Shown: in pieces, positions 30,601-35,400 of the stretch
Layout: every line of letters starts with the position of its first letter
Position numbering within the stretch: position 1 is the stretch's first letter
Source of the DNA: Candidatus Atelocyanobacterium thalassae
GTDB taxonomy: Bacteria > Cyanobacteriota > Cyanobacteriia > Cyanobacteriales > Microcystaceae
DNA length: 35,400 nt
Assembly (NCBI GenBank): GCA_051971635.1
Contig: JBFPLN010000002.1
Coordinates: 1-35,400, forward strand
Direction of reading: 5' to 3'
Made by a program: the position numbers

Positions 30601-33600
30601 GAGTGAATATTTCACTTAACCATTTAGCATTAATATTGTCAAGTCAATAATTTTCATTAATTAATAGTTCAGCTATTTGAATTGCATTTAATGCTGCTCC
30701 TTTAAGAATTTGATCACCACAAATCCACAATTCTAAGCCACAAGGATGAGAAATATCTTGACGAACTCTTCCAACTAATACATCATCGTTACTAGACGCA
30801 TCAAATGGCATAGGAAAACGATTTTTTTGCCAATCTTCAAATAACTGAACTCCCGAAGTTTGAAGGATAATTTCTCTTGCTTTATCTATTGGAAACGGTT
30901 CATCAAACTCTAAATTAATAGATTCAGAATGAGCTCGCAGTATAGGAACTCTTACACAAGTGGCTGTTACTTTTAAGTCTGGTTCATTAAAAATTTTACG
31001 GGTTTCATTTACCATTTTCATTTCTTCTTCACAATACCCCATATCAGTCATCTTAGAATCATGCAGAAAAAGATTGAAAGCAAGGGGATAAGGTAAAATT
31101 TTTGCTTCAGGTTTCTTGTCATCAAAAATATCTTTAAATTGTTTTTTCATTTCTTCTATTGCTTGCATCCCAGCTCCACTAACAGACTGGTAAGTGGATA
31201 CAACTATTCTTTTAATGGGCTGAGTCTTATGTAGTGGATAAATAGCCATAGCCATAAGAATGGTTGTACAGTTAGGATTCGCAATAATTTGGTTATGGCC
31301 AACTAAGGAACTGGGATTAATTTCTGGTATTACTAGAGGGACATTAGGATCCATACGAAAAGCACTAGAGTTATCTATCATCACAGCTCCTGCACTTGTA
31401 ATAGCTTTTACCCAAGTTTTAGACACAGAACTTCCAGCAGAAGCTAATACTAAATCAATATTGTTAAAGGAATTTATCTTAACTTCCTCTACTTCTAATG
31501 CTTCACCCTTAAATATTAATTTATTTCCTGCAGAACGAGAAGAAGCTAAAAGCTTAAGGTTTTTCAAGGGGAAATTACGGCTTTCTAAAAGTTTTAGTAA
31601 CTCAGTGCCAACGGCTCCTGTCGCCCCTAATATGGCGATATTAACTGGCTTGGACAATTGACCTTCCTCTCTACATTATCGAGCCAACAATTTTATCATT
31701 ATGTAATAACGTGAAAACTTTTTCTTATTAATAATTAATATCTAACCATTTTCCTTTTACGAATGAATCATTTAACCTGCCATCTTAGTTAATAAAATTT
31801 ATTTTAATTCATTGAGTGGGATCAATTTAAAATATACAAACTTTTTGTATATTTTACTCCAGGAATACTTATCCAGATATAAATATTTTAAAGTATATAT
31901 AATTAAACTTTTAAAACAATCCTTTACCGCAGTTATATTACTTTTACGAAGAAACCCTATTAATAGTACTTTTTATGTATATTCATACTATTCGTCTTTT
32001 TATAAAAATATGTTATCAATCAATATATTTTTATTTTATTAATAATAGATTGAGTAAAGGAAACAAACTTCTAATACATTCATTAATTTTTGCCTATAAT
32101 TGGAGCTTAATATGATTAATTTACTATATTCAGCCATTATATATAATGATATTTTCTACTAAAATTGCGAAAGGTAGTATAAACTATGAGAGTGATGGGA
32201 ATTTATCAAAAGCAAGTGTATATAATATCTTATTACTTAATATATTATAGACATTAAATATTTCCCATTTCATTTAAAATTAACCTTAATTTTCTAAGCT
32301 CTAAAAACCTTTCATGATTTCTAGTAATGATTTTCGGAGCGGTGTCTCTATTGAGTTAGATGGTTCAGTATGGCGCGTTATTGAGTTTCTACATGTTAAG
32401 CCTGGCAAAGGTTCAGCTTTCGTTCGAACTAAATTAAAGAATGCTCAAACGGGAAATGTAGTGGAAAAAACCTTCCGTGCAGGAGAAAGTGTTCCTCAAG
32501 CTAATCTCGAAAAACGTACCATGCAACATACCTATAAAGACTCAGGACAGTATGTTTTCATGGATATGGAAACTTTTGAAGAAGTTCAGTTAAGTCTCCA
32601 ACAAATGGGAACAACTGTAAACTATGTTAAAGAAGAAATGGAAGTTGATATTCTTTTCTGGAATGAAAAAGTATTGGAAGTTCAATTACCAACTTCTGTT
32701 GTTTTAGAAATTACAGAAACTGACCCTGGTATAAAAGGAGATACTGCTACAGGTGGTACGAAACCTGCCATTGTAGAGACTGGGGCTCAAATAATGGTTC
32801 CTTTATTTATCACTATTGGTGAGAAGATTAAAGTTGATACCCGTGATGGCTCCTATTTAGGACGAGAAACTTAAAATTAAACCTGGTTGTCCATATTTTA
32901 GATAACCGGGTTTAATACCTACTTAAACGTATTTTTACGAGTAGTTATAGGATGGATAGTCTGTGTCAATTAATTTTAAAGAGCTTCGTGAGTTGTTAGG
33001 GGCGATAGCCCAAACCGATATTTCTGAGGTCACCTTAAAAACAGAGGCTTTTGAGTTAAAAGTGAGTAGAGAAGTAAAAATAACAACTTCTACTCCACCA
33101 ATATCAGCAGAGGTGGCCACTACTAACACCTCTATACTTTCAACAAATTCCGTTCAAACAATTTCGACCACTCCTTCCAGTCATGAACATTGGGTACCAA
33201 TTACATCCCCTATGGTTGGTGTATTTTATCGTGCTTCGGCTCCAGAAGAGCCTCCATTTGTTGAAGTTGGAGATCATGTTAGTAAAACTCAAACAGTTTG
33301 TATAATTGAAGCAATGAAACTGATGAATGAAATTGAGGTGGAAACGGCAGGAGAGATTATGGAAATTCTTGTAAAGAATGGTGAACCTGTAGAATATGGG
33401 CAAACCTTAATATGGGTAAACCCTAAATAAAAAGCTATAAAATATAGTCTAATATTTCAAAGCTAAATATATTGGGAATGAAAAAATTTTGCTGTTCTTT
33501 ACTATATGCTTTGATTCAAAAATAATATAAAGTCTTTACAGGAAATTTTTACTCCCTCACTATAGACGTTATCGACTGAATGAATAAAAGGTTTAATAGT

Positions 33601-35400
33601 ATACTATTAAACCTTTTATTCATTCAGTCGATAACGTCTATAGTGAGGGAGTAAAAATTTCCCATTAGCTTGGTGTCTTATTCCATCCCAATAAAACCAG
33701 TGAATATTATGATCATAAAAATTTAAGAGAATATCATTACCAATATTTAATTGTCCTTGATTCTTAATTAACGCCCTAATTATTAATTTTGATCCTTTTA
33801 TTTGAACGCTAATTAAGCTTTCCTTTCCTAGCTCTTCAACTAATTTAATTTCTCCACTAATTTTAAAGCATTTACTCAATGAATTAGATTGATAGATATC
33901 TTCAGGGCGAATGCCTAAGACAACATACTTAGGCCATTTACTTTTACCATTTATTTCCCATATATACTGGGGGTCAAGATAACTTAAGGGGATCAAGAAA
34001 TCACCTAAAACTGCGTGATTTCCCTGACAACGTAACTCTAGTAAATTCATTTGAGGACTTCCAACAAAACCTGCTACAAATTGGTTGGCTGGACGCTGAT
34101 AAATTTCCCGAGGAGAAGCTAATTGCTGTACTTCACCACCAAATAATACTGCAACCTTATCTGATAAAGTCATAGCTTCAGTTTGATCGTGGGTAACGTA
34201 TACCACAGGCTTATTCTGCTCTATGAATATTTGCTTGAGCTCAGCCCTTACTTGTTCTCTTAAAAGTGCATCTAAATTACTTAATGGTTCATCAAGTAAA
34301 AAAATATCTGGATTCCTAACTAATGCACGAGCCAATGCGATTCTTTGCCTTTGCCCACCCGAAAGTTTTCTTGGCTTTTCTGATAAACAATCTTTACCTT
34401 CTTGTAGCTTTAACTGTTTTGCTGCTTTCTGAATGCGCCGTTCAATTTCTTCTTCCGAAAGTTTACGAATTTTTAGAGCAGTAGCAATATTTTCTCTCGC
34501 CGTCATATGAGGATAAAGAGCATAACTTTGAAATACCATTGCTATATTGCGATCTCCAGCTGAAATATTAGTTACATTTTTTTCTCCAATAAATATTTCT
34601 CCTTGTGTTGGAGTTTCTAATCCTGCAATTAATCTTAGAAGAGTTGATTTTCCACAACCAGAAGGTCCCATGATGGCAACGAACTCGCCTTCCTTGATTT
34701 CCACGTTCACATTATTCAATGCAGTCGTGTCTACATCTTCAGTGATATATATTTTGCGTAAGTTTTTAGCTTGTATCATTGTTTTTATGGTTTATTTGAT
34801 ATCGATTTTAAGTTCTTTGTGATTAAATAATTTGGATGGGGTCTTACATTATAGCTATAAGCTGTTAGCTGTTATTTGTTAGCTGACAGCTGTTAGTTTC
34901 AATAAGTATCCAAATAATTCAATTATGCGTGATTTTAAAAGTCTTTTTGTATGGCAAAAGAGCCATGAATTAACATTATCTATTTATAAGTCGACTTCAG
35001 GATTTCCTAAAGAGGAACTTTTCGGTCTCATAAGTCAAATGAGACGGTCTTCTTCATCAATCTCAACTAACATTGCAGAAGGACGTGGAAGGACAACTCA
35101 ATCTCAAATGGCTCATTTTCTAAATATTGCTTTGGGTTCAGCATCTGAATTGAGATATCAAATACTGCTATCCAAAGATTTAGAGTTCATTTCAGAACAA
35201 ATTTTCATAGAACAATCTGACCTAGTTGTTGAAGTCATGAAAATGCTTACTTCACTATATCAACAAGTCAATAAATCAAAAGCTAACAGCCAATAGCTAT
35301 CAGCTAAAAAATCTCACTCCTTCAACTCCAATACCTCATTATCTCCGAAAGTATCATAGCTCGAAATTATAACTTTATCACCTGGCGAAAGACCATCAAT

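What a model noticed while it worked through the whole genome (the two positions that open the first line are those of the whole stretch)
33541..33662. About a hundred perfect palindromic hairpins at gene 3' ends whose two arms co-vary between UCYN-A sublineages
The genome holds 96 perfect inverted repeats with stems of 16-59 bp and loops of 3-40 nt (50 with stems >=20 bp, 13 >=30 bp), mostly close behind gene ends; the longest (C2:33541-33662) is a 122-bp perfect palindrome. In the congeneric genome G002 the orthologous hairpins are again perfect although their sequence has changed, so each substitution in one arm is mirrored in the other. I read them as plastid-like 3' inverted-repeat elements (bidirectional terminator / mRNA 3'-end stabiliser) kept perfect by arm-to-arm gene conversion of the DNA palindrome rather than by selection on RNA pairing alone: a new genome-maintenance process and an organelle-like RNA 3'-end system.
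Evidence so far: Own scan: 96 hairpins in 1.469 Mb (65/Mb); 0 in the genome shuffled in 100-bp blocks; 92 of 96 outside genes; flanking genes convergent 31, ++ 32, -- 18, divergent 11, against 234/394/340/235 gene pairs (convergent 2.8x the rate of divergent). Examples: 3 bp after psaB (C5:26836-26949, 55-bp stem), after groEL (C5:77122-77204), gnd (C5:1412-1485), fabF (C1:239786-239879), ndhD (C6:109773-109849). G002:1-800000 has 85 (12 with stems >=30). Of 52 G000 hairpins in the part covered by G002, 20 have an alignable perfect orthologue: 466 aligned stem positions, 51 substitutions, all matched by the complementary change; the other 32 (7 without flank match) have none or a much shorter one. 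Only 5 of [...]
(Added by a program. Inside this text positions count along the whole contig: contig position 1 is position 1 of the stretch shown here. "Call 12" and the like, gene names such as g00115 and contig names such as C1 are that model's own, and its searches are not shown. The text may have been shortened before it was handed on; [...] marks where a part breaks off. The agent that wrote the report below was given it as the finding of a first reader that could run no searches.)

Follow-up and report, generated by a model that had tools for sequence, protein, structure and literature searches.

The report
Self-copying palindromes behind symbiont genes
A nitrogen-fixing cyanobacterial symbiont carries about a hundred long, perfect DNA palindromes between its genes, most likely made and kept perfect by a known copying error of DNA replication and preferentially retained behind gene ends, where they probably mark or protect RNA ends as similar hairpins do in chloroplasts.

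Summary
The window holds a perfect 122-bp palindrome. G000 has 101 perfect stems of 16 bp or more (0-2 in shuffles), G002 has 150, and 88% of G001 has 93. 'All substitutions mirrored' is an ascertainment effect: unselected counts are 87 mirrored, 207 one-sided and 18 double non-pairing, still well above chance. DNA-level copying is shown by whole arms inserted or overwritten as inverted copies, a mirrored indel, a loop inversion and loop-less centres. The focal arm copies 47 coding bases. This fits replication template switching, a published mechanism, not a new process. Selection is also indicated: hairpins behind 3' ends persist across lineages while those between divergent genes mostly do not, they have a terminator-like core, and internal mismatches are 75 transition-type to 2 transversion-type. 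RNA function is untested, and free-living controls were too small. Long intergenic palindromes are published for Blochmannia. This scan noted single template-switch palindromes in two other endosymbionts. I found no report for UCYN-A in the searchable library.

The parts
33541..33601 (.). Left (non-coding) arm of the 122-bp perfect palindrome; an inverted copy of the ABC gene's last 47 nt plus 14 nt of downstream sequence
   Evidence: present and perfect in G002 (55 bp); reduced to a ~17-nt outer remnant in G001 and in an independent contig L166
33602..33662 (.). Right arm; 33616-33662 is coding sequence of the ABC ATPase including its stop codon
   Evidence: the C-terminal peptide is homologous in free-living relative locus L007, which has no stem above 9 bp anywhere
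33616..34779 (-). Sugar/glycerol-3-phosphate-type ABC transporter ATP-binding protein (UgpC/MalK-like), convergent on the palindrome
   Evidence: best NF008653 E 3e-118, below its curated cut-off
32963..33430 (+). accB (biotin carboxyl carrier protein); its stop lies 110 bp before the palindrome
   Evidence: TIGR00531 over cut-off
32314..32874 (+). efp, upstream of accB on the same strand
   Evidence: TIGR00038 over cut-off
10893..10966 (.). Second member of the class: 27-bp perfect stem (33 bp with one A-C mismatch) in a convergent spacer; not conserved in register in G002 or G001
5239..5294 (.). Near-perfect hairpin, 27 bp with two G-T mismatches
27638..27705 (.). Near-perfect hairpin (29 bp, 93%) in a convergent spacer

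Best explanation
Two layers. Origin and upkeep: during replication the nascent strand briefly switches template (folds back on itself or copies the other strand). This writes an inverted copy of nearby sequence, extends a stem, corrects one arm from the other or flips the loop. In the AT-rich, weakly constrained spacers of this reduced genome the process leaves sequence-unique perfect palindromes up to about 60 bp per arm, and slippage at microhomologies deletes them again. Retention: those lying behind stop codons, above all between convergent genes, are kept by selection because the strand-symmetric hairpin, with a GC-richer core and A/U-rich outer stem, works on either strand as an intrinsic terminator or 3'-exonuclease barrier. 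Those between divergent genes are mostly transient by-products. Shown: block copying at the DNA level, turnover, context-dependent retention, wobble-only mismatches. Inferred: that the copying is replication template switching rather than RecA conversion, and the RNA function.
For: Block copying: one arm is conserved in both relatives while the other is newly inserted or overwritten. Examples are G002:1479771 (18 derived sites against 0), G002:146898 (about 30 nt added), G000 C3:227571 (8 against 1) and G002:841839 (4 against 0). Mirrored 3-nt indel at C3:455720 and different centres in one spacer at C1:250747. A 21-27-nt loop inverted between G000 C1:23156 and G001, score 9 against -0.5. Loop-less centres exceed what an RNA loop with a random 4-nt centre gives: 10 of 18 in G000 (p 1e-4), 5 of 11 in G001 (p 0.02), 6 of 23 in G002 (p 0.16). 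In the focal hairpin all 5 G000/G002 differences in the coding arm (4 synonymous) are mirrored in the non-coding arm. Transversions are 6 of 24 strict mirrored changes in G000/G002, against about 11% expected for two independent mutations (p 0.04) and 30% for copying (p 0.82). Arms are not a repeat family. Selection: 41 of 61 hairpins behind a 3' end against 1 of 10 in divergent spacers are kept in a relative in G002 (p 0.001), and 27 of 37 against 0 of 4 in G000 (p 0.01). Stem divergence is 0.09-0.10 against 0.23-0.26 in the same spacers. A GC core (27-35% at 6-11 nt from the centre) appears in convergent and tandem hairpins but not divergent ones (12-20%). Internal mismatches are 75 G-T/A-C against 2 others, whereas isolated changes in ordinary spacer are 135 transitions, 64 transversions and 23 indels. 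Conserved hairpins follow ftsH, fusA, pnp, rpoC2, psaB, psaK, psaL, petE, groEL, gnd, tkt, pgi and infC among others. PNPase and two RNase III genes are present.
Against: No RNA data. No excess of G-U over A-C on the sense strand of tandem hairpins (18 against 22), so single-strand RNA selection is not seen. The transversion share of strict mirrored changes is lower in the other comparisons (3 of 14, 2 of 19), between the two expectations. No repair-gene loss explains a raised rate: sbcD, mutS, mutL, recJ and recA are intact, sbcC is full length though just under its cut-off, xseA is missing but also in 43 of 62 family genomes, and recQ is missing in G000 but present in G078 and G072. Slower stem divergence and better retention near 3' ends are partly open to alignment bias, because divergent spacers are longer and harder to align. 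The three genomes are not independent samples. The terminator scan does not call the focal hairpin. Most loops are too short and AT-rich to orient.
Confidence: 0.6

Rival explanations
1. Purely mutational by-product: template switching makes and homogenises the palindromes. The 3' bias reflects only purging from promoters and coding sequence, or more switching near highly transcribed gene ends. The transition-only mismatches reflect G-T wobble tolerated in the DNA fold-back, or mismatch repair undoing the correction of transition mismatches.
For: G-U and A-C are symmetric. Stems are far longer and more AT-rich than termination needs (mean arm GC 18-21%). The focal hairpin was lost in G001. 36 of 88 anchored G002 hairpins have no counterpart in G000, and lost hairpins are rarely replaced by another in the same spacer. 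MutS and MutL are present. Mismatch repair reverting template-switch products is described in yeast (10.1101/2023.08.09.552703, passages), and so are transcription-linked quasi-palindrome mutations (PMC3820800, abstract).
Against: A GC core occurs only in 3'-context hairpins, and stems diverge at about 40% of the flank rate. Retention depends on context. The mismatch-repair variant predicts that 1-3-nt bulges persist like transitions, but bulges were near chance (7 against at least 4.7; 1 against 0.8), a low-power result.
Confidence: 0.22
2. RecA-dependent gene conversion or flip-flop recombination between arms (possibly between genome copies) does the upkeep once an arm exists. This is closest to the first reader's wording.
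For: recA is intact. Loop inversions occur, and small plastid inversions between 11-24-bp repeats are attributed to recombination (PMC12928735, passages).
Against: It cannot create new arms or extend stems into non-homologous flank, both seen. Many homogenised stems are only 16-25 bp, short for RecA (recalled).
Confidence: 0.1
3. RNA selection alone: classical compensatory evolution of bidirectional terminators or stabilisers.
For: Wobble-only mismatches, 3' enrichment, conserved cores.
Against: Point mutation and selection cannot give inserted 20-55-nt inverted copies, mirrored indels, inverted loops or paired 0-nt centres.
Confidence: 0.05
4. Amplification or assembly artefact (fold-back chimeras).
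For: At least one published genome of this group was made from amplified DNA (PMC8679911, passage). G000 has the strongest loop-less excess.
Against: Orthologous hairpins are perfect in independent assemblies with lineage-specific sequence. Loop-less centres are shared by G000 and G002 at three loci. The G001 deletion junction is identical in an independent metagenome contig.
Confidence: 0.03

Closest known systems
Template-switch (quasi-palindrome) mutation creating and maintaining hairpins (PMC8794818; for Proteobacteria PMC5941160)
   Same: De novo perfect stems, stem extension, multi-base compensatory change and loop inversion, the signatures listed in PMC8794818 Fig. 1, are all seen here.
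   Different: Scale. PMC5941160 reports all short E. coli K-12 inverted repeats (spacer up to 70 bp) under 20 bp per arm; here there are 47-91 perfect stems >=20 bp in 1.3-1.5 Mb. The arms copy coding sequence, and only transition-type mismatches persist.
Long intergenic palindromes of Blochmannia endosymbionts (PMC3017870)
   Same: Reduced AT-rich symbiont genomes; 62-136-bp palindromes almost all in spacers; a role in transcription or mRNA stability was suggested.
   Different: That study allowed 3 mismatches, found 6-20 per genome, invoked selection only and, in the passages I saw, made no orthologous arm comparison.
Plastid 3' inverted repeats, including bidirectional stem-loops such as psbT-psbN and petD-rpoA (PMC7145512), and hairpin-bounded small inversions (PMC12928735)
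   Same: AT-rich stem-loops behind genes, shared by convergent transcripts, with loops that invert.
   Different: In plastids the RNA ends are mapped and the stems stabilise rather than terminate. Here no RNA ends are known.
Rho-independent (intrinsic) bidirectional terminators
   Same: Position behind stop codons, convergent enrichment, GC-richer core with A-rich 5' and U-rich 3' outer stem.
   Different: Stems are several times longer than typical terminators (recalled), low in GC and often have no loop. In Synechococcus elongatus only 22% of transcription units end in canonical terminators (PMC12642595, abstract).
REP elements and MITEs
   Same: Palindromic, extragenic, often between convergent genes.
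   Different: No shared sequence family: arms hit elsewhere in G000 only as 14-20-nt AT-rich matches.

Membership tests
Template-switch-derived inverted repeats | New or extended arm that is a reverse-complement copy of adjacent pre-existing sequence | tested here: met
Template-switch-derived inverted repeats | Multi-base or indel changes mirrored in both arms | tested here: met
Template-switch-derived inverted repeats | Loop inversion | tested here: inconclusive
   One clear long-loop case; overall forward/reverse 6/6 of 16, 4/2 of 6 and 5/3 of 9 on short AT-rich loops
Template-switch-derived inverted repeats | Dependence on replication (strand bias) and independence of RecA | not testable with these tools
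   No GC-skew polarity to assign leading strand; no bias relative to transcription
Plastid-type 3' inverted repeats | Located behind coding ends, often shared by convergent genes | tested here: met
Plastid-type 3' inverted repeats | Mature RNA 3' ends map to the stem base and depend on PNPase/RNase II trimming | not testable with these tools
   Only the presence of PNPase was checked
Intrinsic terminators | GC-rich short stem followed by a U-tract | tested here: inconclusive
   Class-level GC core and A>T skew of the 5' arm (tandem 64 against 36, p 0.007; convergent 43 against 27, p 0.07; orthologues counted more than once); focal hairpin not called
Intrinsic terminators | Polymerase release at the hairpin | not testable with these tools
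   needs in vitro or reporter assay
REP/MITE repeats | Multi-copy shared sequence | tested here: not met
   36 of 51 arms have only 14-20-nt hits elsewhere, 15 have none
Rfam structured RNAs | Match at gathering score | tested here: not met
   only a group I intron elsewhere in the window

The most novel reading that the evidence does not exclude
Early in becoming organelles, this symbiont lineage and, independently, the small-genome relatives G078/G072 have converged on the plastid way of ending RNAs. Long strand-symmetric hairpins are supplied and repaired by a raised rate of template switching, so a mutational process writes and maintains the cell's main 3'-end signals, with wobble-only tolerance showing selection on both strands.
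Probability: 0.22. Interest if true: 0.78.

Novelty: new variant of a known kind. Interest (0 to 1): 0.48.

Why it matters
How long perfect RNA stems arise and stay paired is an open question, and template switching is a recent proposed answer. Three syntenic genomes with 90-150 such elements each give a natural test set with births, extensions, deletions and coding-arm copies, and both arms fit on one sequencing read. If the RNA role holds, an organelle-grade nitrogen-fixing symbiont shares a plastid trait, which matters for understanding and engineering its gene expression. If it does not, the elements still warn that perfect covariation in reduced genomes is not proof of RNA structure.

Tried and rejected
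(1) Loss of the hairpin nuclease SbcCD as the cause: rejected; sbcD is intact in all three genomes and sbcC is full length in the two searched. (2) Loss of mismatch repair: rejected. (3) Loss of ExoVII or RecQ as the specific cause: xseA is absent in 43 of 62 family genomes, most of them far larger, and recQ is kept in G078 and G072. No PF00929 exonuclease was found in any of 5 genomes. (4) Directional copying relative to transcription: 13 of 14 cases in pairwise alignments did not survive three-way alignment (37 against 31; 11 against 10), so rejected. (5) Leading/lagging strand test: no usable GC skew. (6) G-U excess on the sense strand: none. (7) Mismatch-repair filter as the cause of transition-only mismatches: bulge test not supportive, low power. 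(8) My first reading that G001 never had the left arm: revised, since a remnant and microhomology junction show a deletion. (9) REP/MITE family: rejected. (10) Homology of the groEL hairpin outside the genus: matches in 29 of 38 other genomes searched stop at or near the coding end. (11) Population variants: the metagenome scan gave only one locus. (12) Free-living controls: 0 stems >=16 in about 62 kb of 17 small loci and 40 kb of G046, but G046 contributed only 4.8 kb of spacer, where about 1.5 would be expected at the G000 rate, so the contrast is not established here.
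Full report
Observation. Window 33541-33662 is a perfect palindrome of two 61-bp arms. 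It lies between accB (32963-33430, +) and a convergent UgpC/MalK-like ABC ATPase (33616-34779, -). My scan of G000 (1,469,411 bases) found 101 perfect stems >=16 bp, 51 >=20 and 14 >=30. Four block shuffles gave none >=16, and five dinucleotide shuffles of each spacer gave 0-2 against 89 observed. G002 (whole) has 150/91/20, and 1,267,400 of the 1,443,806 bases of G001 have 93/47/10. With my own gene calls (1176 genes), the 101 G000 hairpins fall 33 in convergent, 50 in tandem and 12 in divergent spacers, and 6 inside genes. Tandem ones are nearer the upstream stop in 36 of 50, 51 of 72 and 31 of 37 cases, with median distances of 32-47 nt. Arms average 18-21% GC and share no sequence family.

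Co-variation without circularity. Aligning all 51 G000 stems >=20 to G002 by flank anchors gave 945 unchanged pairs, 87 mirrored changes, 18 double non-pairing changes, 207 one-sided changes and 173 pairs with a gap. For G001 (43 of 51 anchored) the counts were 526, 62, 17 and 185. From the per-site difference in that alignment (0.17), about 35 double changes are expected under independence (my arithmetic), only part of them complementary, against 105 seen and 87 complementary. So coupling is real, but 'all mirrored' is not. Of the 51, 22 keep a same-register run >=14 bp in G002, 11 keep 9-13 bp, 6 have a different repeat in the interval and 12 have none. Turnover is substantial.

The focal element. 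In G002 it is again perfect (55 bp, no loop). All five G000/G002 differences in the coding arm, four synonymous and one Tyr/His, are mirrored in the non-coding arm. The peptide end is homologous in a free-living relative whose locus has no stem above 9 bp, so the coding arm is ancestral and the left arm is its copy. G001 keeps only about 17 nt of the outer left arm, matching G001's own codons at the diagnostic sites and joined to the right arm at a 5-nt microhomology. An independent metagenome contig has the same junction. I read this as deletion of an ancestral hairpin by slippage. A second coding-arm hairpin (C3:576700) shows a similar partial loss in G001.

Evidence for copying at the DNA level. 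Three-way alignments show arms inserted or overwritten in one lineage while the donor arm is conserved: G002:1479771, 146898, 935007 and 841839, and G000 C3:227571 and C5:99334. There is a mirrored 3-nt indel at C3:455720, and hairpins with different centres occupy one spacer at C1:250747 and C1:283805 (output partly cut). One long loop is clearly inverted (C1:23156 against G001). The overall tallies on short loops are inconclusive: forward/reverse 6/6 of 16, 4/2 of 6 and 5/3 of 9. Paired 0-nt centres, useless to an RNA, are 10 of 18 small even-centred cases in G000, 5 of 11 in G001 and 6 of 23 in G002, against 16% expected. Strictly isolated mirrored changes are 18 transitions and 6 transversions (G000/G002), 11 and 3 (G000/G001) and 17 and 2 (G002/G001). 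Fourfold sites give 30% transversions and a two-mutation path would give about 11%. The first comparison favours copying, the others are intermediate, and the three overlap. These are the signatures that PMC8794818 lists for template-switch mutation (I read part 1 of 6: abstract, introduction, Fig. 1 legend, start of results).

Evidence for selection. Among stems >=20 that could be scored in both relatives (74 of 91 in G002, 43 of 51 in G000; the rest lacked anchors or lay at locus edges), those behind a 3' end keep a same-register run >=9 bp in at least one relative in 41 of 61 and 27 of 37 cases. Those in divergent spacers do so in 1 of 10 and 0 of 4. Conserved stems diverge at 0.09-0.10 against 0.23-0.26 for the same spacers. 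Convergent and tandem hairpins have a GC-richer core 6-14 nt from the centre and an A-rich 5' arm, which gives a U-rich 3' arm on either strand; divergent ones lack the core (orthologues counted more than once). The 26 three-way conserved G002 hairpins follow many housekeeping, photosystem I and carbon-metabolism genes; 38 proteins were scanned and 5 had no family. I had no background set, so enrichment for high expression is an impression. The most unexpected result is the mismatch spectrum. In 229 near-perfect hairpins with >=20 pairs, isolated internal mismatches are 75 G-T/A-C and 2 others. A stricter count gave 29 and 0, while mismatches that merely end a stem are 176 against 346 and ordinary spacer changes are 135 against 64. 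On the sense strand of tandem hairpins G-U does not exceed A-C (18 against 22). This fits selection on both strands or wobble tolerance in a DNA fold-back, and I cannot separate the two. A mismatch-repair filter is a third option. It has a yeast precedent (10.1101/2023.08.09.552703, passages) but found no support in a low-power bulge test.

Machinery. sbcD, mutS, mutL, recJ, recA, PNPase and two RNase III genes are intact, and sbcC is full length just under its cut-off. xseA is absent from all three congeners and all five 2.5-3.1-Mb genomes of genus g30, but from 43 of 62 family genomes overall. recQ is absent from G000. No loss explains the pattern. The ceiling near 120 bp would fit SbcCD removing longer palindromes, a recalled E. 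coli threshold that I did not test.

Controls and generality. Two small complete genomes of another genus in the family, which I take by size to be a separate endosymbiont lineage (inference), had 7 stems >=16 in 40 kb (G078) and 1 in 20 kb (G072). Per spacer base this is similar to G000. The free-living samples had none but held too little spacer to be decisive. The published contrast is E. coli K-12, where all short inverted repeats had arms under 20 bp (PMC5941160, abstract and passages).

What is known. Blochmannia genomes carry 6-20 palindromes of 62-136 bp, almost all intergenic (PMC3017870, passages). Plastid stem-loops define 3' ends of convergent transcripts and stabilise rather than terminate (PMC7145512, passages). 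Short inverted repeats are non-randomly placed across plastomes (PMC6081594, abstract), and hairpin-bounded small inversions are common (PMC12928735, passages). Most Synechococcus transcription units lack canonical terminators (PMC12642595, abstract). Searches for UCYN-A, nitroplast or spheroid body with inverted-repeat, palindrome or repair terms listed no paper whose title or abstract start describes these elements. Term searches in one UCYN-A genome paper (PMC8679911) and one diatom-endosymbiont preprint (10.64898/2026.03.19.712447) found no 'palindrom' or 'hairpin'. The library lacks most subscription papers and I read no supplements, so absence from print is not established. Two earlier notes of this scan reached the same template-switch reading for single palindromes in other endosymbionts; they are not independent evidence.

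Verdict. A real, genome-wide and apparently unreported feature of this lineage, best explained by a known mutation mechanism combined with selection at 3' ends. It is an extreme variant of known kinds, not a new process. Interest is moderate, carried by the scale, the wobble-only mismatch spectrum and how directly it can be tested.

Noticed in passing
window 27333-27551 (+): Group I intron match (Rfam RF00028, 90 bits); probably the cyanobacterial tRNA-Leu intron (recalled), host gene not checked.
   Followed up: no
window 34925-35296 (+), flanks about 34850-34900 and 35280-35310: Four-helix-bundle gene (TIGR02436 over cut-off) flanked on both sides by short degenerate tandem repeats that by eye look inverted relative to each other.
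   Followed up: no
L023:12850-12898 (G002): Perfect 22-bp hairpin lying wholly inside a heptosyltransferase-like coding sequence; two more gene-internal ones in G001 (L115:10357 and near L115:16544).
   Followed up: partly
L161-L163 (G078, G072): Small-genome relatives of another genus show similar perfect hairpins, 8 stems >=16 bp in 60 kb, in both 3' and divergent contexts.
   Followed up: partly
G000 whole genome: No RecQ-family gene over cut-off, unlike four relatives searched; no cumulative GC-skew polarity in G002 or the fetched part of G001.
   Followed up: partly
G000 C5:26836-27035: Two perfect hairpins in tandem after psaB (55 bp and 23 bp); the second overlaps a gene end by 28 nt and has no aligned partner arm in G002.
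   Followed up: partly
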